Origin: a virus
IMG/VR virus record: IMGVR_UViG_3300045988_084534
Location: 1 to 64,000 of that record
Strand: one strand, 5' to 3'
Length of the DNA: 64,000 nucleotides
Positions 20,764 to 52,068 of the stretch are shown piece by piece. Each line of letters starts with the position of its first letter. Positions within the stretch are counted from its first letter, which is position 1. Below the pieces are notes generated by a model. The model did not search any database. It was not told where the DNA came from and saw only the letters and a list, made by a program, of their open reading frames with translations. The position numbers and the translations under genes are program-made.

Positions 20764-21000
20764 TATTTGCCTATGAAGCGGCGGCTATGTTGGTGTGTTG
20801 CCGTTGAGGTACTATTAGGGTTGTGTGAAATCCAAGTTCCAACTTAGGTTTAGTCAAAAGCCGAAAATAAAAACACTCAAAAATATAAAACGAGCAGATA
20901 GGGAGGACAAGTAGCTCAATGAACTTTGGCATACGTTAATGAAGTCCATAATCTAACTGCTCTAATATATAAACAATAAAACAAAGAAAGGAGGTTGAAG

Positions 21001-33438: not shown

Positions 33439-33730
33439 ATGGCAAAAACAAACAGTAATTACTCCATCATTGCTGATGTTGAGCTTGAGCTAAAAAATGC
33501 GCAAAAACAATTAAACGAGTTTAGGAAAGATAATAAATTAAATCTTGACTTAAATGTTAAAGGTTCTAAAAGTTTATCTGACGCAGATGGTAAAGTAAAA
33601 AAATTAGATGATTCTACCAGAGACCTAGTTTTTACATATCAGCAATTTAGACAGGTGCTAGATTCTGTTGTTGATGTTACTGGCAAAATGGTGGAACAAG
33701 TCAAGACGCTGGATGCGGCACAGACAGAGT
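33439..33730 (+). CDS. tail tape measure protein, exon 1 of 5
   Basis: Coiled-coil N-terminus. The ORF terminates 8 codons after the proposed splice site. Confidence 0.7.
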
Positions 33731-34997
33731 TAATCTTTAGCTCGCTTTCGTTGTAAAACGATTGAAAAATAACCCATTGAATTGCTGGAAACCCCTTAGA
33801 GCTGTCATGCTAAAGCGGAGAGATGAAATACGCTCAAACGTAAATGCTTGAAAAGTTGATAGATTGGGCAATCAGCAGCTAAGACCCGAATAGGGTAAAG
33901 TTCAACGACTATCCCGTAAGGGAGTACACTACAAGCGATTGGTAGTGGAAGTGGTGGGTATCCTAATAGGATAAAGATATAGTCTGGTCTTATAAGAAAT
34001 TATAAGCGCGTAAGCGAATGTAGGAGTAGCGTCCTTTTAATGTAATGATAAGACAAATATTCATAAGGAGGTGAATATGTGTATAGAAGAAAAATAGATT
34101 ATAATTTAGTAAAATCTGAGTTTGATGAGCGTGGATACGAATTATTATCTACAGAATATGTGAATAATGTTACGAAATTGCAATATGTTTGCCCAAAACA
34201 CAGAAACAAAGGTATTTTAGAAACTACATTTGCTAATTTTACAAAGGGAAAAGGATGCCCATATTGTGCAAATAGAGTAAAAAAGACACAAGAAGAATAT
34301 GAGGCAGAGTTAGCAATAAAAAAGCCAACAATTAAAGTAATTGGGAAATATATAAATCTTAAAACAAAGATAGAACATGAATGTGTTGTCTGTGGCTATC
34401 GTTGGGATGTATTGCCAGATAATATGCTACATATGTCAAACGGTTGTCCTAAATGCGGGAAAAGAGCACCATTGAATCAAAATGAGTTAATAAATAGGAT
34501 TGCTAAAATAGATGATTCTATTGAGGTTGTTGGAGAATATTATAATACTGCAACGAAAATGTCTTTTAGGTGTAAGAAATGTGGAAATGTTTGGGAGGCT
34601 AAACCAAATAATATATTGAATGGCAAAGGATGTCCAAATTGCAAATCGTCTAAAGGAGAAAAAGAGGTTGCACGCATTCTTGATGAACTCGATGTATTGT
34701 ATAAACCACAATTTAAGTTTCAGGATTGTAAAGATGAATTGCCACTTCCATTTGACTTTTATCTTCCAGATTATAATATTTGCATAGAATATGATGGTGG
34801 ACAACATTATAAGCCATGCACATTCGGTGGTATTTCTAAAGAGCAAGCAAGAGTGAATTTTGAGCTTGCTAAGAAACATGATAGAATCAAAGATGCGTAT
34901 TGCAAACAACACAACATAAAATTAGTAAGAATCCCGTATTGGGAATATAAAAATATAAGAAATATATTATCATTACATTTACATTAAACACAAAACG
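33731..34997 (+). mobile_element. group I intron (TMP intron 1) with PD-(D/E)XK-type endonuclease gene
   Basis: P1: gagT (33727-30) / Gctc (33740-43). P7: gactatc (33907-13) / gatatagtc (33976-84). Ends in G34997. The join gives ..AAQTEFKKVSDLSG.., which is in frame. Confidence 0.8.
34079..34987 (+). CDS. intron-encoded endonuclease: three Zn-ribbon modules plus C-terminal Vsr/PD-(D/E)XK-like nuclease
   Basis: Repeated C..H/CPxC modules (CPKH..CPYC, CVVCG..CPKCG, CKKCG..CPNC). C-terminal FDFYLP..ICIEYDGGQHY..DRIKDAYC..NIKLVRIPY. Confidence 0.65.
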   Translation: MYRRKIDYNLVKSEFDERGYELLSTEYVNNVTKLQYVCPKHRNKGILETTFANFTKGKGCPYCANRVKKTQEEYEAELAIKKPTIKVIGKYINLKTKIEHECVVCGYRWDVLPDNMLHMSNGCPKCGKRAPLNQNELINRIAKIDDSIEVVGEYYNTATKMSFRCKKCGNVWEAKPNNILNGKGCPNCKSSKGEKEVARILDELDVLYKPQFKFQDCKDELPLPFDFYLPDYNICIEYDGGQHYKPCTFGGISKEQARVNFELAKKHDRIKDAYCKQHNIKLVRIPYWEYKNIRNILSLHLH

Positions 34998-35086
34998 TTA
35001 AGAAGGTCTCTGACCTGTCTGGTAAAGCATTAGACGCTTATCAAGACAAATTATCAAAAGCCGGTAAGACGGTAGGACGAACTGGT
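34998..35086 (+). CDS. tail tape measure protein, exon 2 of 5 (89 nt)
   Basis: Encodes (F)KKVSDLSGKALDAYQDKLSKAGKTVGRTG. Exons 1+2 total 381 nt, which is in frame. Confidence 0.65.
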
Positions 35087-35423
35087 AAACCAAATCGGTC
35101 TGAGCCAGTATGTACAGATGGTAAATGTGCATAAGGAACAGCCCCTAAACCCTTGAAAGCCTCAAGAGCCTTATCACTACAACATGAGGATGAGATATGC
35201 CTGAGTGTGAATGATTCATTAGTAATGAACAATTAGTGCGAAAGCAGAAAGACGATAAGGATGATTCCATGGGCGAAAGACCTAAAGAATCTGTCATAAA
35301 TAATGTATGATAAAAGGGCAGATTGGGCGCGAAGCCGTGATGAGCGGTGTGTCAACAGAATATACAGGGCGGCCCTCCAAATATATAGGGTGAAGAATTA
35401 TTCGGGAAGGGATTGAAAACCTC

Positions 35424-35452
35424 TTGACAAATTATCTAAGATGTGCTATTGT
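35424..35452 (+). promoter_or_regulatory. sigma-A-like promoter inside the intron, upstream of the cargo ORF
   Basis: TTGACA (35424-29), 17 nt, TGcTATTGT (35447-52). Confidence 0.55.
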
Positions 35453-35487
35453 ATAGATACAATAAATAAAGAAACGAGGTATCTATT

Positions 35488-35703
35488 ATGTTCTTGTCTG
35501 TTATGACCTTTATTATCATTGGCCCGATGCTTGTTATCTCTGGGATTGTCGCGCTGATTAAGGAGCTTTCAAACAGCGGGAAAGGCGATAATCAGAGTCA
35601 GTCGAATCAGAATAAATATAACATTCGCTATGAAACGCCGGAAGAAGAAGAGCGGCGAATCAATGAATGGGGTTATGATGATGAAAGGTGGGGCAGATTG
35701 TGA
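35488..35703 (+). CDS. intron-borne small membrane protein (71 aa), function unknown
   Basis: RBS acgaggt 7-8 nt upstream of the ATG. The N-terminal hydrophobic stretch MFLSVMTFIIIGPMLVISGIVALI looks like a TM helix, followed by a charged tail. The stop lies 5 nt before P7'. Confidence 0.6.
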   Translation: MFLSVMTFIIIGPMLVISGIVALIKELSNSGKGDNQSQSNQNKYNIRYETPEEEERRINEWGYDDERWGRL

Positions 35704-35784
35704 TTTTTGTATATATCTGGTTTGCTATTATGATTGTATTTACCATTCTTTGTGTATTTGATTTTAGATAATTTGTAATCACTG

Positions 35785-35997
35785 TCAGAAATGATTTCTG
35801 CTGCATCGCAGTTCAGAAAATCAGGTTTCAATGATGAAGATGCGGCGACATTAGCCAAGGTTGCGGCGCAGTATCAGAACGTAGCCGACACAGCGGTATC
35901 AGCAGAAGATGCAGCAGCTTCTATTACTTCTCAGATTCGTGCATTTGGTGAAGATGCGGCATTTGCTACTACTGTAATTGATGCTTACAACGAGGTT
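35785..35997 (+). CDS. tail tape measure protein, exon 3 of 5
   Basis: SEMISAASQFRKSGFNDEDAATLAKV..AYNEV; 213 nt, in frame. Confidence 0.7.
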
Positions 35998-37233
35998 TAA
36001 TTTTGTAGACCTCTATAAACAGGGTGAATTGCTGGAAACCTAAACTCATATAGAGCATGGTAATCAGCAGCCAAGATTGAGATGAAATGCTCAATAAGGT
36101 TCAGAGACTATCGAAAGCATAATAAATAAAAGTGGGAATATACCACTTGAAGTGAGTAGAGTACACAGTAGTGCTAACTGTGGAAGTGCCCTGCCCTCAT
36201 ATTATATGAGGTGATGATATAGTCCATTCCTATGAGAAATCATAGGCGAGAACTCTATAATAGGTATAATATTTGAAAGAAAAGAAGTTTTGTGTATATG
36301 TGCATATGTTTCCAAATGGGAAAAGATACATTGGTATAACCAGCAAGCGCCCAAATGACAGATGGGAGAGAGGTAGTGGGTATCGTGATAGCTTACCAAT
36401 GCGTAATGCAATAAATAAATATGGATGGGATAATATAGAGCACATAATACTATTTGATGGATTGACACAAGAAGAGGCTTGCAAAAAGGAAGTTGAACTT
36501 ATAGAGAAATATAAAACAAACATTCATAAATACGGCAATCAATATGGATACAACTTAACTGATGGAGGCGAAGGCACTACTGGGCATAAGGTGTCAGAAG
36601 AAAGAAAAGAAATTATGCGCCAACTAAAATTGGGTAAAGTTGGAAAGGATTGTCCAAATTCTCGCCCGATTGTTTGTGATGGGGTTGAGTATGAGAGTTT
36701 AACTGACTTTAAGAATAAGAATAATCATCCAAAAGGCAATATCGCAGCTTGGTTAAATGGTACAGTAGGAATGCCAGAATATTGGTATAATAAACGACTA
36801 CATTATAAAGATTTGGGATTCGATGTTGTTAAATTAGCAGACAATAAAAACCGTGCTAAAAAAGTTGTTGCAGATGGAATTATGTTTGATACGTTAGAAG
36901 ATTGTGCTAATTATTTTGGAGTAGATGCACCAAGGATATGTAATTATCTAAATGGTAAAAATGCTACACCAGACAGAATCATAAATGCAGGACTTAGATA
37001 TGAAGATGAAGATGTGCATGAATTTAAAAGGCAAACTAAAAGAAGTAAGAATAAAATAAAATGTGAAATAGATGGCATTCAATTTAATACACAAGCAGAC
37101 TTAGCGAAATATATAAAAGAAAATAAGGCGACTTTATGGGCTTGGTTTGCTGGGAAAAATCCAATGCCAGAGAAATATGTAAAGAGAGGAATAAAAATTA
37201 TAGAGTAATCTCGGCTCAACTTAGCAAATTGAG
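35998..37233 (+). mobile_element. group I intron (TMP intron 3) with GIY-YIG endonuclease gene
   Basis: P1: gaggtT (35992-97) / Gacctc (36008-13). P7: gactatc (36106-12) / gatatagtc (36216-24). Ends in G37233. Confidence 0.8.
36273..37208 (+). CDS. intron-encoded GIY-YIG homing endonuclease
   Basis: FCVYVHMFPNGKRYIGITS..RW..GSGY..NAINKYGW..EEACKKEVELI; TTG start with a weak RBS. Confidence 0.8.
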   Translation: MKEKKFCVYVHMFPNGKRYIGITSKRPNDRWERGSGYRDSLPMRNAINKYGWDNIEHIILFDGLTQEEACKKEVELIEKYKTNIHKYGNQYGYNLTDGGEGTTGHKVSEERKEIMRQLKLGKVGKDCPNSRPIVCDGVEYESLTDFKNKNNHPKGNIAAWLNGTVGMPEYWYNKRLHYKDLGFDVVKLADNKNRAKKVVADGIMFDTLEDCANYFGVDAPRICNYLNGKNATPDRIINAGLRYEDEDVHEFKRQTKRSKNKIKCEIDGIQFNTQADLAKYIKENKATLWAWFAGKNPMPEKYVKRGIKIIE

Positions 37234-46422: not shown

Positions 46423-47298
46423 ATGTTAATGAATGTTCGCCCATCTTATCCAGAATTAGAGTATATCAATATTATTGACATCACGCCAGAAGATAGAACA
46501 TTTACAAGTGATATAGGTATAAGAAGCGTAAGTACATGGGGGCCTCTATATTATGAGGGTGAAGCATATCCACAAAAAGATACAGCGACATATTATCCGA
46601 GCGGACACACACCTCCGGGATATATAAGGTATGGTTTCAGAAATTTTACTGTTCATCCAATATCACAAGCCGAATTAACTGTTGCTGGCACTGAATCAGA
46701 GCAGACATTTCAGCCAAGCAACAATGATGCTTTCTTATATAACAAAGTGACCGTTACTCCAAATCTATTACAGTCAAAACCACCAGTTACGCCATCTGCG
46801 ACATCTCAACCTGTTACACCAGATAGTGGATATTATGCGTTGAATAGTGTTACCGTTAAGGGCTTGCCACTTGAAACAAAGAATGTTCCAAGCATTACGC
46901 AAAACGACCAAGTTTTTACGCCATCTAGCGGATATTATGGCTTTAAGCAAATCAATGTTCCAGCTAGTACCACATTGAAGATGTTGACCGTTACGCGCAA
47001 TAGACCAGATAATATTCCAAATACTGTGGGATTTTCAACGATATATACAATATCTATTTTGACCACTAATAGCATGGGATATACAGAGTATCAGAACGGA
47101 GTAAATATGATAACGGGCAGTTCTAGTCTAGGTGGTGTGGCAACAATTATTTGGGGTTATGGTGGAGATAGTATGCTTCAACAAGTGGTCAATTTCAATG
47201 AATTGGTAACTGTGACTAGTTCAACTATCAACATAAATATAAGTCAATTTGATCTTCGGTTCTCTGGCGAATATCAAGTGTTTATAACGGGGGCGTAA
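46423..47298 (+). CDS. SGYYG-repeat structural protein 1
   Basis: Modules ..QPVTPDSGYYALNSVTVKG.. and ..QVFTPSSGYYGFKQINVPA.. Confidence 0.6.
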   Translation: MLMNVRPSYPELEYINIIDITPEDRTFTSDIGIRSVSTWGPLYYEGEAYPQKDTATYYPSGHTPPGYIRYGFRNFTVHPISQAELTVAGTESEQTFQPSNNDAFLYNKVTVTPNLLQSKPPVTPSATSQPVTPDSGYYALNSVTVKGLPLETKNVPSITQNDQVFTPSSGYYGFKQINVPASTTLKMLTVTRNRPDNIPNTVGFSTIYTISILTTNSMGYTEYQNGVNMITGSSSLGGVATIIWGYGGDSMLQQVVNFNELVTVTSSTININISQFDLRFSGEYQVFITGA

Positions 47299-47300
47299 AT

Positions 47301-48182
47301 ATGATTATTAACAAAAGCCCCAAGGAACTGCTTGGGTTACAAGAGAAAACAATGGAATATGGTGAACATATAACCCCAGATGCAGGTTATATGGGTTTTA
47401 GCAAGGTCACTATCAAAGGAATAACAAAGAGCGACGAATATGTTACGCCGGGAACGACTGAAATCGTGCTAACTACGCCAAGTGGCGGCGCAGATACGAT
47501 TGGCAGTGTGACAGTAAATGGAGTAAAGACGGATACGCTTACTGTATCCCCTAGTCAACAGACACAGGAATTTACGCCAACAGCGCCGTCATCAGGATAT
47601 GATAAGGTGGTTGTTAAAGCTGCTCCAAAATCTATTCTATTTGCCAATCCACAAGAATCCGATGTAACATACACAAAGAATGTCGGCGATTATGGTATTG
47701 GCAGCTTGCTTGTAAAATCTGCGGCGCTACAAGAGAGGACGATATATCCTTCAACATCACCGCAGACCATTAAGCCGGAATCTGGATATTATGGTATTAG
47801 CAAAGTGACTATCAAAGGCGGCACGACCTTAAAAAGCTATGAAAGGATATATCGTGGAGCTGGCGATTATTCTTATTGGGATGCTAATGTACCAATAAAT
47901 GAATTTATAGCAAATCCTACTTGTATTATAGTGTATGCTATCAACGATATGGACGCAGAGGGTGATGTCTATAATCTATTTTCATTAACGGCATATCAAT
48001 CCAATGGACGAATGTATGTAGATGATGGATATATGAGAACAAGGACTGCAAGCATTGCTGATATGTCATATACAACGATTGGCAATAATAGGATGGGCTT
48101 TAATCTGCCTATATATAATAGTAATGATAGAGCGCTATATAAATCTGGGATGTTTTATTTCATTGGTATTTATGGTACATAA
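47301..48182 (+). CDS. SGYYG-repeat structural protein 2
   Basis: Modules HITPDAGYMGFSKVTIKG, EFTPTAPSSGYDKVVVKA, TIKPESGYYGISKVTIKG. Confidence 0.6.
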   Translation: MIINKSPKELLGLQEKTMEYGEHITPDAGYMGFSKVTIKGITKSDEYVTPGTTEIVLTTPSGGADTIGSVTVNGVKTDTLTVSPSQQTQEFTPTAPSSGYDKVVVKAAPKSILFANPQESDVTYTKNVGDYGIGSLLVKSAALQERTIYPSTSPQTIKPESGYYGISKVTIKGGTTLKSYERIYRGAGDYSYWDANVPINEFIANPTCIIVYAINDMDAEGDVYNLFSLTAYQSNGRMYVDDGYMRTRTASIADMSYTTIGNNRMGFNLPIYNSNDRALYKSGMFYFIGIYGT

Positions 48183-48203
48183 AAGGATAAGGAGGGAAAA
48201 TAC

Positions 48204-48410
48204 ATGACAAATATTGAATTGGCAAAAAAGCACGAAGATGTAGCTAAGAAATATAAGACAGTATATATGTGGGGCTGTTTTGGTCATCCAGTGACCGAGG
48301 CGATTATCAGAGAAAAGGCGGCGCAATATCCTAGTTGGTATACAGCGGCAAAGCAGAGAGAACTAAGAAAGCTGGTCGGCAAGGGATATTTTGCATTTGA
48401 CTGTGTAAAT
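48204..48410 (+). CDS. NlpC/P60-like cell-wall endopeptidase (endolysin), exon 1 of 2 (3' boundary +/-15 nt)
   Basis: ..YMWGCFG..GYFAFDCVN contains the catalytic-Cys FDC motif. The ORF stops 8 codons later. Confidence 0.6.
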
Positions 48411-50064
48411 CTCACTGACTTTAGTGCGCAATAATAGTAATGTTATTGTGTGTTTATTTGAATTGCTGGAAACCCCTTAGAGACATATCAACCACAACGT
48501 AGCTATGAAATATGGGCAAGCGTGATGGTTTGAAAATGATATAGATTGGGCAATCAGCAGCGAAGCTCCGAATAGGAGAACGTTCAACGACTATCCTGTT
48601 AGAGGGAGTACAACGCAAACGATTGGCGTTGGAAGCGGATAAGACCCTATTATATAGGGTGATGATATAGTCTCATCTCATATGAAAGTATGAGGAAAAT
48701 TGTTTGAGTTCACTTATAATACTATAAAAGCAAGGAGGTGGGTATGTGGACAAAAACAGACAACATTACAAGATGTCATTGCTTAAATGGTGTGAATCGA
48801 ATAATAGTAATTTGGTTTACGAATGGGATGAAGCAAATGAAATGGCTATGAACGAGATTGGGTCAAGTAGTGGAATAAAAGTGAAATGGATATGCTCTAG
48901 GTGTGGTTTTCATTTTGAGCAAAGACCTTCAGATAGGGTGAGGGGGCATGGTTGTCCAAAGTGTGCTAGAAAATCTCATTCAAGCGTCCCCGAAACGATA
49001 TGTTATTTGGCTATCAAGCAGTATTTTTCAGATGCGATACATGGATATAAAACCGATTGGCTTGGACGTAAAGAATTGGACATCTTTATCCCATCTATTA
49101 GTGTTGGCATTGAATATGATGGAAATTCTTGGCATAATAAATCCAGAAAACGAACAGATAATGACAAGACGTGGCTATGCGCCCAGCATAATATCTTGAT
49201 CTATCGTATAAGAGAAAACGGATGCGAACCAATGGACGACGAGTCAAATAATATTTATTACAAGCCAAGCAAACAATACAATGCTCTTAAGTATTCTATT
49301 ATAGATGTACTAATGAGGCTTGGACATAATAATGTTGCTTTTGATGACTGGGAGTCGCTTATTAATAAGTCTAAATGTGAATTTTCCAGTATTGAAAGAA
49401 GTAAATCTATTGGTGTAATAAATCCAGAATTTAGTGCAAAATGGGATTACGACAAAAATTATCCTTTAACGCCATATGATATATTGGCTCATTCCAATCA
49501 TAAAGTATGGTTAAGATGTGATAAAGGACATTTGTATAAAAGAGCGCCAAACTATTCAAATCAAAAAGAATGCCCCATATGTATAAATAAAATTGTGCTT
49601 GAGGGCTATAATGATTTGGCAACAATAAGACCAGATTTGGCGTTGGATTGGAATTATGATAGAAATGGCGAATTAAAGCCAACGGAAATAACGTTCGGTT
49701 CTAATCGACGTATTTGGTGGAAATGCCATGCTTGCGGAAACGAATTTCAATCATCTCCAAATGCTAGAAAAGATAATATGGGACATTGTTCAAAATGTGT
49801 GTTCACCAATGGCAATGAAACATTATCAAAAAACAAAGCGGTTAATAATAGTCTTGCTGAGTTTTATCCAGAAATCGCAAAAGAATGGGATTATAACAAT
49901 AATGAAAGAACGCCAGACAATGTTGCAAGGATGTCTGGATTGGAAGCGTGGTGGATTTGTTCAAACGGTCATTCTTGGAAGGCTAGTGTTCATAGTCGAA
50001 CGCATGATGGGAAAAAGTGTCCATATTGTAAACAAACTCAAACAATAAACTGCTAGGCGTAGTG
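48411..50064 (+). mobile_element. group I intron in the endolysin gene with a large Zn-ribbon/PD-(D/E)XK endonuclease gene (boundaries approximate)
   Basis: Core elements match TMP intron 1: a 23-nt identity at 48460-82 and the agattgggcaatcagcagc segment at 48543-61. P7: gactatc (48589-95) / gatatagtc (48664-72). The best P1 is gtaaaT (48405-10) / Gtttat (48452-57). Confidence 0.7.
48746..50056 (+). CDS. intron-encoded endonuclease: N-terminal Zn-ribbon plus Vsr/PD-(D/E)XK-like nuclease, then three W-D-Y/Zn-ribbon repeats
   Basis: CSRCG..CPKC; ELDIFIPSISVGIEYDGNSWH..; the repeats (WDYDKN..CPIC, LDWNYDRN..CHACG..CSKC, KEWDYNNN..CPYC) resemble the DUF4379-type zinc-ribbon. Confidence 0.65.
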   Translation: MDKNRQHYKMSLLKWCESNNSNLVYEWDEANEMAMNEIGSSSGIKVKWICSRCGFHFEQRPSDRVRGHGCPKCARKSHSSVPETICYLAIKQYFSDAIHGYKTDWLGRKELDIFIPSISVGIEYDGNSWHNKSRKRTDNDKTWLCAQHNILIYRIRENGCEPMDDESNNIYYKPSKQYNALKYSIIDVLMRLGHNNVAFDDWESLINKSKCEFSSIERSKSIGVINPEFSAKWDYDKNYPLTPYDILAHSNHKVWLRCDKGHLYKRAPNYSNQKECPICINKIVLEGYNDLATIRPDLALDWNYDRNGELKPTEITFGSNRRIWWKCHACGNEFQSSPNARKDNMGHCSKCVFTNGNETLSKNKAVNNSLAEFYPEIAKEWDYNNNERTPDNVARMSGLEAWWICSNGHSWKASVHSRTHDGKKCPYCKQTQTINC

Positions 50065-50565
50065 AACCTAGTTGAAAGAAAATGTAAAGGAATTTTATGG
50101 GGCTGGAATGGTAATGCTAGGTCATATACAGGCGGCGCAAGATATGCTAGTAATGGCGTACCAGATGTTAGCGCAGATGGCATGATTGGCAAATGTAAGA
50201 ATGTATCAACCACTGGCTGGGATAAGCTGGAAATTGGCGAAGGGCTATGGATGCCCGGACACTGGGGTCTATATATTGGCAATGGTCTAGCAGTAGAATG
50301 CACGCCTATTTGGAAGAATGGTGTGCAAATCACGGCTGTTGGCAACATTGGTAATAAAGCAGGATATAATAGCCGCAAATGGACTAAACATGGAAAATTA
50401 CCATATATTACCTATGTTCAGCCAGAGCCAGATACAGATGATAAGCATGAGGCGAATAAAGCCAAAGTAAAGGCGCGATTCGGCTTTACAGACAGCACTA
50501 TTAAATGGCTTGATTCTTATAAATATAATAAAGACATCATGGACAAGCTGGCTAATAAAGGCTAA
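50065..50565 (+). CDS. NlpC/P60-like endolysin, exon 2 of 2 (5' boundary +/-15 nt)
   Basis: ..KGILWGWNG..GGARYASNGVPD..WMPGHWGLYIGNGLAVECTP.. supplies the His of the NlpC/P60 catalytic set. Confidence 0.6.
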   Translation, partial: NLVERKCKGILWGWNGNARSYTGGARYASNGVPDVSADGMIGKCKNVSTTGWDKLEIGEGLWMPGHWGLYIGNGLAVECTPIWKNGVQITAVGNIGNKAGYNSRKWTKHGKLPYITYVQPEPDTDDKHEANKAKVKARFGFTDSTIKWLDSYKYNKDIMDKLANKG

Positions 50566-50576
50566 GAGGTGAATCT

Positions 50577-51335
50577 ATGATTATCAATGCAAATCAAGGT
50601 GGTGGCGGTAATCTACAAGAAAAGACCGCCACCCCATCTACTGCACAACAGATTATTACCCCAGATAGTCAATATGATGGCTTGAGCAAGGTGACTATTG
50701 CGCCTACGCCGCTAGAGGAAAAAACCGTAAAATCATCAACAGCGCAACAGACAATCACACCAACATCGCCTAATATCGGATTTAGTAGTATTACTGTCGA
50801 GCCTAATCTATTACAAACAAAATCTGTGACATTGCCTACTAGCCAGCCGATTCAACCAGATACTGGATATTATGGATTATCGGGAGTCAATGTATTAGCG
50901 CCACTATATCCATTAAACGTAACACCCACATCAACACAGCAAACATTTAATGTTCCTAGTGGATATTATGGGCATGGTACTGTTACTGTTGGAGCAGCAC
51001 CGCAGAATACGGGTTGGTATAAATATTTAACTCTGACAAACACAACCTCTTTATCTATATCGAATCCGGGAATTGATGAAATTCTTATCTGTATGATAAT
51101 GTCACAAGGAACAAATTTACAATATAACTATATTAAAAGTCTACAAATTGTCGGAGACCAATTCTGGAAGGGAGTTTCTGGCAGTGGAGAATTTATTAAC
51201 AGTTCGGATTTTTCTGGTGGTAGTATTTCTATCAATAGTTCAACAATTTCTATTATATTACCACAATATAACGGCACACAATTATATTTTAATGACTCAT
51301 ATTGTATAACATTTAGCGGAACTAAGATACCATAA
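50577..51335 (+). CDS. SGYYG-repeat structural protein 3
   Basis: Modules QIITPDSQYDGLSKVTIAP, TITPTSPNIGFSSITVEP, IQPDTGYYGLSGVNVLA, NVPSGYYGHGTVTVGA. Confidence 0.6.
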   Translation: MIINANQGGGGNLQEKTATPSTAQQIITPDSQYDGLSKVTIAPTPLEEKTVKSSTAQQTITPTSPNIGFSSITVEPNLLQTKSVTLPTSQPIQPDTGYYGLSGVNVLAPLYPLNVTPTSTQQTFNVPSGYYGHGTVTVGAAPQNTGWYKYLTLTNTTSLSISNPGIDEILICMIMSQGTNLQYNYIKSLQIVGDQFWKGVSGSGEFINSSDFSGGSISINSSTISIILPQYNGTQLYFNDSYCITFSGTKIP

Positions 51336-51357
51336 TTGATAAAGGAGGTCGGTAGAG

Positions 51358-52068
51358 GTGAATATAACATTAACGGGCACAAAAGTCAAGCTCGATAATC
51401 GCACATTAGCATTTGAGGGCAATAATGGCGTTGATGATATTATTGTCACTGTGGACACTGACCCGTCATGGACATATAAACTAGACATTGATTACGCAAA
51501 TGAGAATTGTTGTTGCGGCGACGAGCATTATAATATCATTCAGCTAAATAGAGAGGGTGATGTGTGCTCGGTTACGCTAACAATGGGTATGTTGCCGCAT
51601 AATGGCAGATATATCATGCAGTTGCGCGGAATCAATGAGGACGGACGGGTGTATCACAGTGATTTATTTGAAGTATGGGTAAAGAAATCAATCAACCCGT
51701 GGAAAATATATACGCCTGTTCCAAGCGAATTTTTACAAATTGAACAAAATATTACAGAGGCGAATCAGCATCCTCCTTATCCAGACCCCAATGGTTCAGG
51801 CTACTGGATGATATGGAATACTGAGAAGCGGCAATACGAGCTTAGTGATATTCCTATAACAGGTGGGAGTGGCGATAAAACTTTTACGTTCGCCCAAGTA
51901 ACAGCATCGGATACATGGGTTATTCATCACGGATTAAATAAGCATCCGTCTGTAACCGTGGTAGATTCAGGGAACAATGTTGTCTTGGGCGCAGTGGAAT
52001 ATGTTGATTTGAATAATTGTATATGTAAATTCAACGCGCCTTTTTCTGGTAAGGCGTATTTGAATTAA
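51358..52068 (+). CDS. hypothetical tail-associated protein (236 aa)
   Basis: GTG start after AAGGAGG. Confidence 0.55.
   Translation: MNITLTGTKVKLDNRTLAFEGNNGVDDIIVTVDTDPSWTYKLDIDYANENCCCGDEHYNIIQLNREGDVCSVTLTMGMLPHNGRYIMQLRGINEDGRVYHSDLFEVWVKKSINPWKIYTPVPSEFLQIEQNITEANQHPPYPDPNGSGYWMIWNTEKRQYELSDIPITGGSGDKTFTFAQVTASDTWVIHHGLNKHPSVTVVDSGNNVVLGAVEYVDLNNCICKFNAPFSGKAYLN

What the first reader, a model, noticed from the sequence alone, without database searches (positions are those of the whole stretch)
48204..50565. Endolysin (NlpC/P60-like) split just after its catalytic FDC motif by a 1.65-kb intron; near-duplicate VNL coding at both boundaries makes the exact junction ambiguous
Exon 1 ends ..GYFAFDCVNL and then reaches a stop. 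Exon 2 supplies ..KGILWGWNG..PGHWGLYIG..ECTP, the His part of an NlpC/P60 active site. The intervening block has the same core as TMP intron 1 plus a 436-aa nuclease ORF. The sequence after the Cys codon in exon 1 (gta aat ctc act gac = VNLTD) is mirrored at the start of exon 2 (gtg aac cta gtt gaa = VNLVE), with synonymous differences in the three shared codons. Several splice-site pairs obey the U...G rule and stay in frame (e.g. 48410/50065, 48402/50057, 48412/50058), giving different peptides around the active site. The best P1 I can draw is 48405-10 with 48452-57. The mirrored coding stretch could be a footprint of homing or co-conversion, or of exon duplication at insertion. Introns in lysin genes are known in Streptococcus thermophilus phages.
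Basis: partly seen in the sequence, partly recalled or inferred. Interest (0 to 1): 0.65.

Follow-up and report, generated by a model that had tools for sequence, protein, structure and literature searches.

The report
Mobile intron splitting a phage lysin
A gut-phage cell-wall-degrading enzyme gene is interrupted, four codons after its catalytic cysteine, by a mobile self-splicing group I intron carrying its own homing nuclease; this is a known kind of element, with the unusual detail that the 5' splice site is a C-G pair instead of the near-universal U-G wobble.

Summary
The split gene is real. Exon 1 (48204-48415) and exon 2 (50085-50565) flank a 1669-nt group I intron (48416-50084; Rfam RF00028, 93.9 bits). 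Its 436-aa ORF (48746-50056) is a homing endonuclease: DUF4379 zinc fingers plus an EDxHD/Vsr-like nuclease core.

The junction is not ambiguous. More than 3700 uninterrupted homologs read FDCVNLT|KGILWGW. A 95%-identical intron-less phage matches the window's DNA up to 48415 and again from about 50086.

The "mirrored VNL" (50062-50070) lies inside a conserved intron hairpin that is also present in ORF-less intron copies. It is intron, not exon.

Seven intron alleles plus a sister intron in the tape-measure gene give 28 compensated base pairs, so the ribozyme is under structural selection. They place P1 at 48413-17/48422-26 and P2 at 48427-36/48441-50.

The splice-site pair is C48415-G48424, where the sister intron has U-G. 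The guide CUUUAGUG is the exact complement of the ligated junction CAC|UAAAG.

Evidence for mobility is presence/absence polymorphism, ORF-less derivatives and a co-conversion-like tract (13 of 33 differences within 46 nt, p about 2e-8).

Verdict: a new member of a known kind, with a non-canonical 5' splice site that needs experimental confirmation.

The parts
48190..48195 (+). Ribosome-binding site (AGGAGG) of the lysin gene, 8 nt upstream of ATG 48204
   Evidence: Read directly from the sequence.
48204..48415 (+). Lysin exon 1 (Met1 to the first two bases of Thr71). The catalytic Cys67 codon is 48402-48404.
   Evidence: ORF list. Alignment to continuous homologs. DNA identity to the intron-less allele L001 runs to 48415.
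48416..50084 (+). Group I intron, 1669 nt, beginning with U48416 and ending with ωG50084
   Evidence: Rfam RF00028. Boundaries come from intron-less homologs and from nine intron alleles sharing ...CTCAC|TGACTTTAGTGCG and ...AATG|TAARG.
48413..48426 (+). P1 hairpin: C13-G26, A14-U25 and C15-G24 (splice-site pair), then U16-A23 and G17-U22, with loop ACUU. The 5' splice site lies between C48415 and U48416.
   Evidence: It is the minimum-free-energy fold in all five alleles folded. In the RNAalifold consensus it occupies columns 18-23/27-32. There the sister intron has A-U, G-C and U-G where the lysin alleles have C-G, A-U and C-G.
48419..48426 (+). Internal guide sequence CUUUAGUG. GUG pairs with the end of exon 1 (P1). 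CUUUA pairs with the start of exon 2 (P10).
   Evidence: It is the exact reverse complement of the ligated junction CAC|UAAAG. Alleles with AAG keep the pairing as G-U.
48427..48450 (+). P2: a 10-bp hairpin (48427-36 with 48441-50) with a GUAA tetraloop. The in-frame stop of exon-1 read-through (TAA 48432-34) lies inside it.
   Evidence: RNAalifold columns 33-42/47-56 show double compensatory changes at 48429/48448 and 48430/48447. It is also the minimum-free-energy fold.
48397..48694 (+). Extent of the Rfam RF00028 match, which begins in exon 1; the intron's own core (P1-P9) runs from 48416 to 48694
   Evidence: In the consensus fold, 28 of 90 predicted pairs are kept through changes on both sides.
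48699..48710 (+). 5' strand of the peripheral stem (provisionally called P9.1) whose loop holds the endonuclease gene. It pairs with 50035-50046.
   Evidence: ATTGTTTGAGTT is the reverse complement of AACTCAAACAAT. The ORF-less allele L087 equals window 48416-48707 plus 50040-50084.
48733..48738 (+). Ribosome-binding site (AGGAGG) of the endonuclease gene, 7 nt before GTG 48746
   Evidence: Read directly from the sequence. The N-terminus MDKNRQHYKM is shared with the homolog P0124.
48746..50056 (+). Homing endonuclease gene, 436 aa: one DUF4379 zinc finger, a nuclease core, then three DUF4379 fingers
   Evidence: Pfam PF14311, four stretches, E = 3.5e-56. PHROG matches annotated as HNH endonuclease, endonuclease and homing endonuclease. 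AlphaFold model with mean pLDDT 83.2.
48983..49225 (+). Nuclease core (residues 80-160) of the Vsr/DUF559/EDxHD type. Conserved residues are S80, E83, D112, E123, D125, H130, K141 and E157.
   Evidence: Alignments A3 and A4. Pfam matches to REase_MTES_1575 in 12 of 13 members, DUF2726 in 11, DUF559 in 5 and Vsr in 1. I-Bth0305I (3r3p) matches by fold at prob 0.84 and TMt 0.58 and by profile at E = 0.39.
50035..50046 (+). 3' strand of the P9.1 stem. It overlaps the last codons of the endonuclease gene.
50053..50071 (+). Terminal intron hairpin (provisionally P9.2): CUAGG / CGUAGUGAA / CCUAG.
   Evidence: Conserved in all nine 3' junction alleles, including ORF-less L087 and L138. The only change is one loop base.
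50072..50084 (+). 3' tail UUGAAAGAAAAUG, ending in ωG50084
   Evidence: The exon 2 start is fixed by homologs.
50085..50565 (+). Lysin exon 2 (third base of Thr71 to the stop codon). It includes His130 (50260-62) and Glu142 (50296-98). Bases 50085-50089 (UAAAG) form P10 with 48419-23.
   Evidence: The spliced CDS is 693 nt, the same length as the intron-less allele.
48386..48401 (+). 5' co-conversion-like tract: a cluster of mostly synonymous differences from the otherwise 95.6%-identical intron-less phage
50085..50097 (+). 3' co-conversion-like tract. It includes U50085, which makes Thr71 = ACU. That codon is absent from 82 intron-less alleles.

Best explanation
Bases 48416-50084 are a mobile group I intron inserted after the second base of the Thr71 codon of a phage NlpC/P60-like peptidoglycan hydrolase. 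That is four codons after the catalytic Cys67.

Splicing:
- The pre-mRNA folds into a group I ribozyme.
- A short P1 (exon CAC with guide GUG) presents the bond between C48415 and U48416 for attack by free guanosine. The splice-site pair is a Watson-Crick C-G rather than the usual U-G wobble.
- The guide's CUUUA then pairs with the first five exon-2 bases (P10), and the terminal G50084 occupies the G-site.
- The exons are ligated to ...CUC AC|U AAA GGA... This yields a 230-aa lysin, FDCVNLTKGILWGW, colinear with intron-less homologs.
- Unspliced transcripts stop at UAA 48432-34.

Mobility:
- The loop of a peripheral 3' hairpin carries a homing endonuclease gene with its own ribosome-binding site. 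The protein combines DUF4379 zinc fingers with an EDxHD/Vsr-like nuclease.
- It presumably cuts intron-less lysin alleles of co-infecting phages near the insertion site.
- Repair then copies the intron together with short flanking exon tracts.

Shown: the intron core, the insertion point, the allele polymorphism, structural covariation, the clustered flanking substitutions and the family resemblance of the endonuclease.

Inferred: splicing in vivo, use of C at -1, endonuclease activity and its target.
For: Intron and junction:
- Rfam RF00028 full-length match.
- More than 3700 continuous homologs carry FDCVNLT-KGILWGW.
- The intron-less allele L001 lies in a phage 95.6% identical over 7.1 kb. 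Its exon identity to the window stops at 48415 and resumes from about 50086.
- Nine intron alleles in lysins 64-96% identical have identical boundaries.
- Synonymous variation runs right up to both boundaries: 48404, 48407 and 48410 on one side, 50088 on the other.

RNA structure:
- RNAalifold on 7 alleles plus TMP intron 1 finds 28 of 90 pairs compensated.
- The P1 columns place C48415-G48424 at the position of TMP1's U33730-G33740, with both neighbouring pairs compensated.
- P2 (48427-36/48441-50) also shows compensated pairs.
- P1 plus P2 is the minimum-free-energy fold in all five alleles tested.
- The guide is the exact complement of the ligated junction.
- The sister intron TMP1 gives an in-frame join with canonical U-G and ωG, using the same guide architecture.

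Flanking exon sequence:
- Thr71 is ACU in all intron alleles and in 0 of 82 intron-less alleles.
- 13 of 33 differences from the intron-less allele lie within 46 nt of the junction. Hypergeometric p = 1.9e-8, and 0 of 20000 permutations reach this.

ORF-less derivatives: L087 and L138.

Lysin: PHROG endolysin family. The AlphaFold model (pLDDT 83.7) best matches the autolysin Acd24020 catalytic domain 7cfl at prob 1.0 and TMt 0.66. There is also a weak match to the NlpC/P60 enzyme CwlO at the GHxG motif.

Endonuclease. This class was described in PMC12350094.

Feasibility of a short guide: the Anabaena intron works with a 3-nt guide (PMC12355055).
Against: - No RNA data exist, so splicing itself is inferred.
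- The last exon base is C, whereas U-1 paired to G is conserved and required in studied introns. In Tetrahymena a C-1/G22 substitution raises P1 undocking about 80-fold (PMC1891724).
- P1 has only three exon base pairs.
- P1 is invariant among the lysin alleles, so its support comes from comparison with the sister intron, not from covariation within the lineage.
- Rfam's model places the P1 U inconsistently: at the 48406 equivalent in the window and L134, and at the 48416 equivalent in L087.
- The endonuclease core matches known families only weakly in this particular protein. Its own Pfam E-values are 0.046 and above, although relatives score better.
Confidence: 0.78

Rival explanations
1. 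The ribozyme uses a canonical U-G 5' splice site at U48406 paired with G48426, as in the Rfam alignment, together with ωG50084. This gives UGU GU|U AAA, an in-frame product FDCV-KGILWGW of 227 aa that lacks Asn-Leu-Thr.
For: - The Rfam covariance model aligns its conserved U to 48406 in the window and in L134.
- The join is in frame.
- A helix 48400-07/48425-32 is 95% paired across five alleles.
- A U-G pair fits the chemistry known from model introns.
Against: - Bases 48427-48432 belong to P2, which has true compensatory changes at 48429/48448 and 48430/48447. Once P2 is included, the long helix disappears from the minimum-free-energy fold in all alleles.
- It is 1-2.3 kcal/mol less stable even in the truncated context.
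- Bases 48407-48415 are identical to exon sequence in the intron-less allele and vary only at a codon third position.
- All homologs keep four residues between Cys67 and the invariant Lys72.
- There is no P10 in that register.
- The sister intron's wobble G aligns with G48424, not G48426.
- The model's placement of this U changes between near-identical alleles.
Confidence: 0.06
2. One reading: exon 2 begins upstream at 50057-50065, so that the second 'VNL' is translated. The duplication would be a footprint of homing or of exon duplication at insertion.
For: - The candidate junctions obey U...G and stay in frame.
- The in-frame tripeptide match has a crude chance of about 0.4%.
- The 8-mer GTGAACCT also equals the commonest intron-less exon form.
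Against: - All the listed uninterrupted full-length homologs read C-x4-K. The proposed joins would add 3-6 residues to the catalytic helix 67-75.
- The stretch is invariant in all intron alleles, including ORF-less ones, while the real VNL codons drift synonymously.
- It forms a stem-loop.
- It lies 15 nt upstream of the point where exon identity to the intron-less allele resumes.
Confidence: 0.02
3. The intron no longer splices, or never did. The lysin is then inactivated, or it is made as two separate polypeptides from ORF 48204-48434 and the GTG-initiated ORF 50062-50565.
For: - The 5' splice-site pair is non-canonical.
- Exon 2 has an in-frame GTG or ATG start (MNLVERKC... or MKEQC...) that gene callers use.
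Against: - Both exons stay intact in nine alleles across diverged phages, with mostly synonymous differences.
- The ribozyme core shows 28 compensated pairs, which indicates selection on RNA structure.
- No ribosome-binding site precedes 50062.
- The split falls inside the catalytic helix, between Cys67 and Lys72.
Confidence: 0.06

Closest known systems
Group I introns in phage lysin genes: Streptococcus thermophilus phages (Foley, Bruttin & Brussow 2000, J Virol 74:611; seen only as a citation in PMC11878797) and, from memory, the lysK intron of Staphylococcus phage K
   Same: [quoted passage not shown] It is widespread among related phages, and ORF-containing and deletion (ORF-less) derivatives coexist at one site.
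   Different: The host enzyme differs (an NlpC/P60-like peptidase of uncultured human-gut phages), as do the insertion point and the endonuclease family. Here the last exon base is C, not U. I could not read the Foley paper in the held library, so detailed comparison rests on its title and on memory.
EDxHD/Vsr-like homing endonucleases: I-Bth0305I (PMC3239194) and the outgroup with CapR/DUF4379/DUF723-like repeats described in phage group I and II introns (PMC12350094)
   Same: An intron-encoded nuclease with a Vsr-type core. E83, D112, D125, H130 and D137/139 correspond to E170, D196, N208, H213 and D222 of I-Bth0305I. The core is fused to an array of small DNA-binding modules.
   Different: I-Bth0305I uses NUMOD/HTH modules with a C-terminal nuclease. 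The 2025 outgroup has 3-5 repeats followed by a C-terminal nuclease; the TMP intron 1 ORF of this window has that layout. The lysin-intron protein instead has the nuclease between one N-terminal and three C-terminal DUF4379 fingers. Sequence and fold similarity to 3r3p are weak.
TMP intron 1 of the same window (33731-35006)
   Same: The core is 74% identical, with the same guide architecture (N|U...CUUUAG NNN followed by a P2 with a GUAA loop). Its ORF is also a zinc-finger plus Vsr-like nuclease protein.
   Different: TMP1 has the canonical U33730-G33740 pair. Its ORF lies in a different 3' context, and it lacks the CUAGG...CCUAG terminal hairpin.
Anabaena pre-tRNA-Leu group I intron (PMC12355055)
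   Same: It works with a guide of only 3 nt. Compensatory changes that keep guide-exon pairing are largely tolerated in a circularisation assay.
   Different: It is a tRNA intron without an ORF, and its natural splice-site pair is U-G. The paper does not report a natural C-G site.

Membership tests
Group I self-splicing intron (Rfam RF00028) | Conserved catalytic core (P3-P9, G-binding P7) recognised by the family covariance model | tested here: met
   93.9 bits against a gathering score of 50, covering model positions 1-253. Alleles score 93.6-96.3 bits. 28 of 90 consensus pairs are compensated.
Group I self-splicing intron (Rfam RF00028) | Terminal guanosine (ωG) as the last intron base | tested here: met
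   G50084 immediately precedes the homolog-defined start of exon 2. It is conserved in all nine 3' junctions.
Group I self-splicing intron (Rfam RF00028) | U as the last exon base, forming a U-G wobble with the guide sequence in P1 | tested here: not met
   The homolog-defined junction has C48415 paired with G48424, in the column where the sister intron has U-G. This holds in all seven 5' junctions. The feature is near-universal rather than strictly definitional, so the element is still filed as a group I intron.
Group I self-splicing intron (Rfam RF00028) | P10 pairing between the guide and the first exon-2 bases | tested here: met
   UAAAG (50085-89) pairs with CUUUA (48419-23). It is retained as G-U in the AAG alleles.
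Group I self-splicing intron (Rfam RF00028) | Guanosine-dependent self-splicing | not testable with these tools
   Needs an in-vitro splicing assay or cDNA.
Mobile (homing) intron | Presence/absence polymorphism at one site among otherwise near-identical genomes | tested here: met
   L001 and L002 lack the intron at 95.6% flanking identity. All 82 lysin alleles recovered in L001-L082 (two metagenome contigs and 80 IMG/VR loci) are intron-less. Nine intron alleles occupy the same site.
Mobile (homing) intron | Co-conversion of flanking exon sequence | tested here: met
   13 of 33 differences lie within 46 nt of the junction, p = 1.9e-8. The ACU Thr codon is found only in intron alleles. Selection for guide pairing could produce the same pattern.
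Mobile (homing) intron | The encoded endonuclease cleaves the intron-less allele | not testable with these tools
   Needs the purified protein and an intron-less target.
EDxHD / Vsr-like homing endonucleases | Conserved E...D...(N/D)...H...D catalytic residues on a Vsr-type fold | tested here: inconclusive
   The motif residues are present and conserved. Pfam Vsr-superfamily relatives match: PF18741 in 12 of 13 members (best E = 2.4e-7), plus DUF559 and Vsr. The 3r3p matches are weak, at fold prob 0.84 with E = 0.58 and profile E = 0.39.
NlpC/P60 (papain-like) cell-wall peptidases | Cys at the N-terminus of a helix, a His on a beta-strand and a third polar residue about 12 residues later, on the NlpC/P60 fold | tested here: met
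   C67, H130 and E142 are invariant in 19 homologs. Helix 67-75 starts at Cys67. The best PDB fold match is the Acd24020 catalytic domain at prob 1.0 and TMt 0.66. A weak match to CwlO covers the GHxG motif.
NlpC/P60 (papain-like) cell-wall peptidases | Match to the Pfam NlpC/P60 model | tested here: not met
   Neither half of the protein gives a Pfam hit at E <= 0.1, and there is no NCBIfam hit. It is a divergent family, recognised only by PHROG 3513 'endolysin'.

The most novel reading that the evidence does not exclude
The Watson-Crick C-G pair at the 5' splice site, forced by insertion after the second base of a Thr codon and fixed in every allele, may not be a neutral oddity. It could make the first splicing step slow or dependent on a cofactor, so that the intron acts as a delay or timer on lysin production in the phage late phase. 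At minimum, this lineage would be a natural, evolutionarily stable exception to the U-G rule, showing how a ribozyme compensates for loss of the wobble-receptor contact.
Probability: 0.12. Interest if true: 0.65.

Novelty: new member of a known kind. Interest (0 to 1): 0.4.

Why it matters
For annotation, this phage's lysin should be recorded as a single 230-aa protein joined at 48415|50085, not as two fragments.

For intron biology, the locus offers a compact natural series at one site. It includes intron-less alleles, ORF-less alleles and alleles with three endonuclease variants. It also has a visible co-conversion tract and a sister intron in the same genome that carries the canonical U-G.

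That series makes the role of the 5' splice-site wobble directly testable in a natural context. One could, for example, swap C48415 to U, or compare splicing kinetics with TMP intron 1.

It also adds a lysin-gene example, and a new domain order, to the recently recognised zinc-finger/EDxHD-like homing endonucleases.

Tried and rejected
1. A bipartite 'bulged P1' with an outer exon-intron helix (48400-05/48427-32). It appeared as the minimum-free-energy fold of a 41-nt fragment and was 98% paired in five alleles. I rejected it because those intron bases form P2, which has real compensatory changes, and because the helix vanishes when P2 is included.
2. Rfam's P1 placement as evidence for the splice site. 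I rejected it because the placement differs between near-identical alleles.
3. A metagenome scan with an intron 5' pattern returned only a chance match and a contig already held. A peptide-pattern search for the endonuclease in IMG/VR found nothing.
4. I looked for an allele with a compensatory change in CAC/GUG, using the last protein search and two further contig look-ups. Two new alleles turned up, but P1 is invariant in them.
5. Literature searches for a catalogue of natural group I introns lacking U at -1 found none in the held library. Rarity is therefore stated from general knowledge plus PMC1891724.
6. Sequence searches of the endonuclease core against PDB and NCBIfam gave nothing significant.
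7. An Rfam search at E <= 1 across 34990-35900, for a possible third TMP intron, found nothing credible.
Full report
**What is in the sequence**

The coordinates given are exactly a gene, from ATG 48204 (RBS AGGAGG 48190-95) to stop 50563-65. It is broken into an ORF ending ...FDCVNLTDFSAQ* (48204-48434) and an ORF containing KGILWGWNG...PGHWGLYIG...ECTP (50062-50565). A 436-aa ORF lies between them at 48746-50056. Rfam finds a full-length group I intron core at 48397-48694 (RF00028, 93.9 bits, E = 7e-23). It also finds two more group I introns upstream, at 33721-34006 and 35988-36246.

**Where the junction is**

A search with a provisional exon join returned more than 3700 homologs, and most of the full-length hits listed are continuous proteins of about 225-245 aa. 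The closest is P0001, at 95% identity and 230 aa. In alignment they all read FDC-VNLT-KGILWGW, with four residues between the invariant Cys67 and the invariant Lys72.

The DNA encoding P0001 (L001) comes from a phage that is 95.6% identical to the window over 7.1 kb of flanks. Its lysin reads ...TGT GTA AAT CTC ACG AAG GGC.... Identity with the window runs up to 48415 and resumes from about 50086.

The intron is therefore 48416-50084, 1669 nt. It could equally be written 48417-50085, because a T is repeated at both ends. The spliced CDS is 693 nt, the same length as the intron-less gene.

Each would add 3-6 residues inside the helix that begins at Cys67 (residues 67-75 in the model).

**The 'mirrored VNL'**

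I recovered nine further copies of the 3' junction and seven of the 5' junction from other metagenomic contigs. These are L083-86, L087, L088, L133, L134, L135/136, L137 and L138. Their lysin exons are 64-96% identical to the window's.

- All of them share ...AAYCTCAC|TGACTTTAGTGCG... at the 5' end and ...CTAGGnGTAGTGAACCTAGyTGAAAGAAnAATG|TAARG... at the 3' end.
- The true exon codons for Val-Asn vary synonymously among alleles (GTA/GTT/GTG, AAT/AAC).
- GTGAACCTAG never varies, and it is present in two ORF-less introns (L087, L138).
- It forms the loop and 3' strand of a hairpin, CUAGG/CGUAGUGAA/CCUAG (50053-50071).

It is intron RNA, not coding sequence. A crude simulation puts the chance of such an in-frame tripeptide match at about 0.4%, and this is a post-hoc figure. 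The 8-mer GTGAACCT also equals the commonest intron-less exon form. I cannot exclude an ancient exon-derived origin for that hairpin, but it has no bearing on the junction.

**The splice-site pairings**

With ωG at G50084, the last exon base is C48415, which is the second base of the Thr71 codon. An RNAalifold consensus of seven lysin-intron alleles plus TMP intron 1 gives 90 pairs, of which 28 are maintained through changes on both sides. The ribozyme is therefore under selection for structure.

- **P1.** P1 is the hairpin 48413-17/48422-26. In its columns the lysin alleles have C-G, A-U and C-G where TMP intron 1 has A-U, G-C and U-G. The two outer pairs are compensated, and C48415-G48424 sits exactly where the sister intron has its canonical U33730-G33740 wobble.
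- **P2.** P2 is a 10-bp hairpin with a GUAA loop (48427-36/48441-50). It has real compensations at 48429/48448 and 48430/48447.
- **Thermodynamics.** P1 directly abutting P2 is the minimum-free-energy fold in all five alleles folded.
- **Guide.** The guide CUUUAGUG (48419-26) is the exact reverse complement of the ligated junction CAC|UAAAG. That gives a 3-bp P1 and a 5-bp P10. Alleles with Lys = AAG keep P10 through a G-U pair.
- **Relatives.** Other relatives with the same guide architecture show a U opposite the G that follows CUUUA. TMP intron 1 gives an in-frame join with canonical rules.

**Rivals for the 5' splice site**

Rfam's model aligned its conserved U to U48406, paired with G48426, in the window. 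With ωG50084 that would give an in-frame product lacking Asn-Leu-Thr. I took this seriously.

A helix 48400-07/48425-32 is 95% paired in five alleles. However, all its variation is one-sided, and its 3' strand overlaps P2, which has true covariation. The helix disappears from the fold once P2 is included. The model also moves its U to the 48416 equivalent in the near-identical L087.

Bases 48407-15 are identical to exon sequence in the intron-less allele. I first entertained a bulged bipartite P1, which was an artefact of folding a fragment that lacked the 3' strand of P2.

**How unusual is C at -1**

U-1 paired to G is described as conserved and required. In the Tetrahymena ribozyme, C-1/G22 raises P1 undocking about 80-fold (PMC1891724). 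The Anabaena intron shows that a 3-nt guide is workable, and that changes preserving guide-exon pairing are largely tolerated in a circularisation assay (PMC12355055).

I found no catalogue of natural exceptions in the held literature. Use of C48415 is therefore the best-supported inference, and it is a non-canonical feature that needs an RNA experiment.

**Evidence of mobility**

1. **Polymorphism.** There is presence/absence polymorphism between near-identical phages. All 82 lysin alleles recovered in L001-L082 (two metagenome contigs and 80 IMG/VR loci) are intron-less.
2. **Clustered differences.** Of 33 differences between the spliced window gene and the intron-less allele, 13 lie between -32 and +13 of the junction (48386-48401 and 50085-50097). 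The hypergeometric p is 1.9e-8, and 0 of 20000 permutations reach this. Eleven of the 13 are synonymous.
3. **Thr71 codon.** Thr71 is ACU in every intron allele and never in the 82 intron-less alleles, which use ACA 46 times, ACG 32 times and ACC 4 times. Leu70 is always CTC in intron alleles, against CTC/CTG/CTT in the intron-less ones. This pattern fits co-conversion during homing, selection for guide pairing, or both.
4. **ORF-less derivatives.** L087 corresponds to window 48416-48707 plus 50040-50084. The endonuclease cassette (48708-50039) therefore sits in the loop of a peripheral stem, 48699-48710/50035-50046.
5. **Endonuclease variants.** Variants of 361-436 aa, 66-69% identical, occupy the same intron in other alleles.

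**The intron protein**

Pfam finds four DUF4379 treble-clef zinc fingers. PHROGs gives families annotated as HNH endonuclease, endonuclease and homing endonuclease.

Homolog alignment shows a conserved core: S80-x-P-E83 ... ELD112IFIPS ... IE123YD125G..WH130 ... D..K141..LC ... IRE157. Members of this core match Pfam REase_MTES_1575 (12 of 13, best E = 2.4e-7), DUF2726, DUF559 and Vsr.

The model (pLDDT 83.2) matches PD-(D/E)XK enzymes and the I-Bth0305I catalytic domain 3r3p, at prob 0.84, TMt 0.58 and 3.1 Å over 76 columns. A profile search gives 3r3p at E = 0.39, with the expected motif register. The residues correspond to E170/D196/N208/H213/D222 of I-Bth0305I (PMC3239194).

A 2025 paper describes exactly this kind of protein in phage group I and II introns: arrays of CapR/DUF4379/DUF723-like modules plus an EDxHD/Vsr-related nuclease (PMC12350094). 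The class is therefore known. The domain order here is one finger, then the nuclease, then three fingers, whereas that paper describes a C-terminal nuclease.

**The host gene**

Neither Pfam nor NCBIfam recognises it. PHROG 3513 'endolysin' does.

The AlphaFold model of the corrected join (pLDDT 83.7) best matches the catalytic domain of the C. difficile autolysin Acd24020. From my own knowledge that is an NlpC/P60 enzyme (7cfl, prob 1.0, TMt 0.66). A profile search weakly hits the NlpC/P60 endopeptidase CwlO at the GHxG motif.

C67, H130 and E142 are invariant. Some homologs carry LysM or SH3 cell-wall-binding domains, and a holin gene follows the lysin in L083.

**Comparison with what is known, and verdict**

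Group I introns in phage lysin genes, with ORF-containing forms and deletion derivatives, are established. The precedent is Foley et al. 2000, which I saw only as a citation. The endonuclease class was described in 2025.

This is a new, well-documented member of a known kind, found in uncultured gut phages. Its one unusual feature is a Watson-Crick C-G at the 5' splice site, fixed across all alleles.

I put confidence in the overall model at 0.78, and interest at 0.4.

Noticed in passing
window 33731-35006 and 34079-34987: TMP intron 1 carries a 302-aa ORF made of zinc-finger repeats followed by a C-terminal Vsr/EDxHD-like core (FDFYLPDYNICIEYDGGQHY...). This is the layout described in PMC12350094. 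Canonical U33730-G33740 and ωG35006 give an in-frame join ...AQTE-F-SDLSGKALDAY....
   Followed up: partly
window 35988-36246 and 36273-37208: TMP intron 2 (RF00028, 82.7 bits) is followed by a 311-aa ORF whose N-terminus looks like a GIY-YIG homing endonuclease. One phage therefore carries at least three group I introns and two endonuclease families.
   Followed up: no
window ~35085-35790: After TMP intron 1 the tape-measure reading frame stops at about 35132, and a TMP-like ORF resumes only at 35791. The ~700 nt between have no long ORF and no Rfam match even at E <= 1. This may be a third intervening sequence that current models do not recognise.
   Followed up: partly
window 20768-20881: A match to the drum RNA family (RF02958, 53.5 bits against a gathering score of 43) on the + strand.
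   Followed up: no
L137 3160-3200 versus window 33880-33905: The lysin-intron allele L137 has a core hairpin (GCTAAGACCCGAATAGGGTAAAG) identical to that of TMP intron 1 of the window, and unlike the other lysin-intron alleles. This suggests recombination between the two intron lineages.
   Followed up: no
window 50062-50069: The intron hairpin 8-mer GTGAACCT equals the commonest exon form at the insertion site in intron-less alleles (GTGAACCTCAC). The sister intron TMP1 lacks this hairpin. It could be chance or an ancient captured exon fragment.
   Followed up: partly
window 46423-48182 and 50577-52068: The lysin is flanked on both sides by paralogous ORFs with repeated T-P-x-x-G-Y-Y-G-x-S-x-V-T-V motifs that look like tail or fibre proteins. 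No holin gene lies immediately downstream, unlike in L083. The enzyme could therefore be virion-associated rather than a classical endolysin.
   Followed up: no
L089 5073-5389 and 5486-5822; L096 6551-6927 and 8325-8678: Large IMG/VR phage contigs (about 150 kb) carry two group I introns close together in one region. One of each pair belongs to the same CUUUAG-guide family.
   Followed up: no
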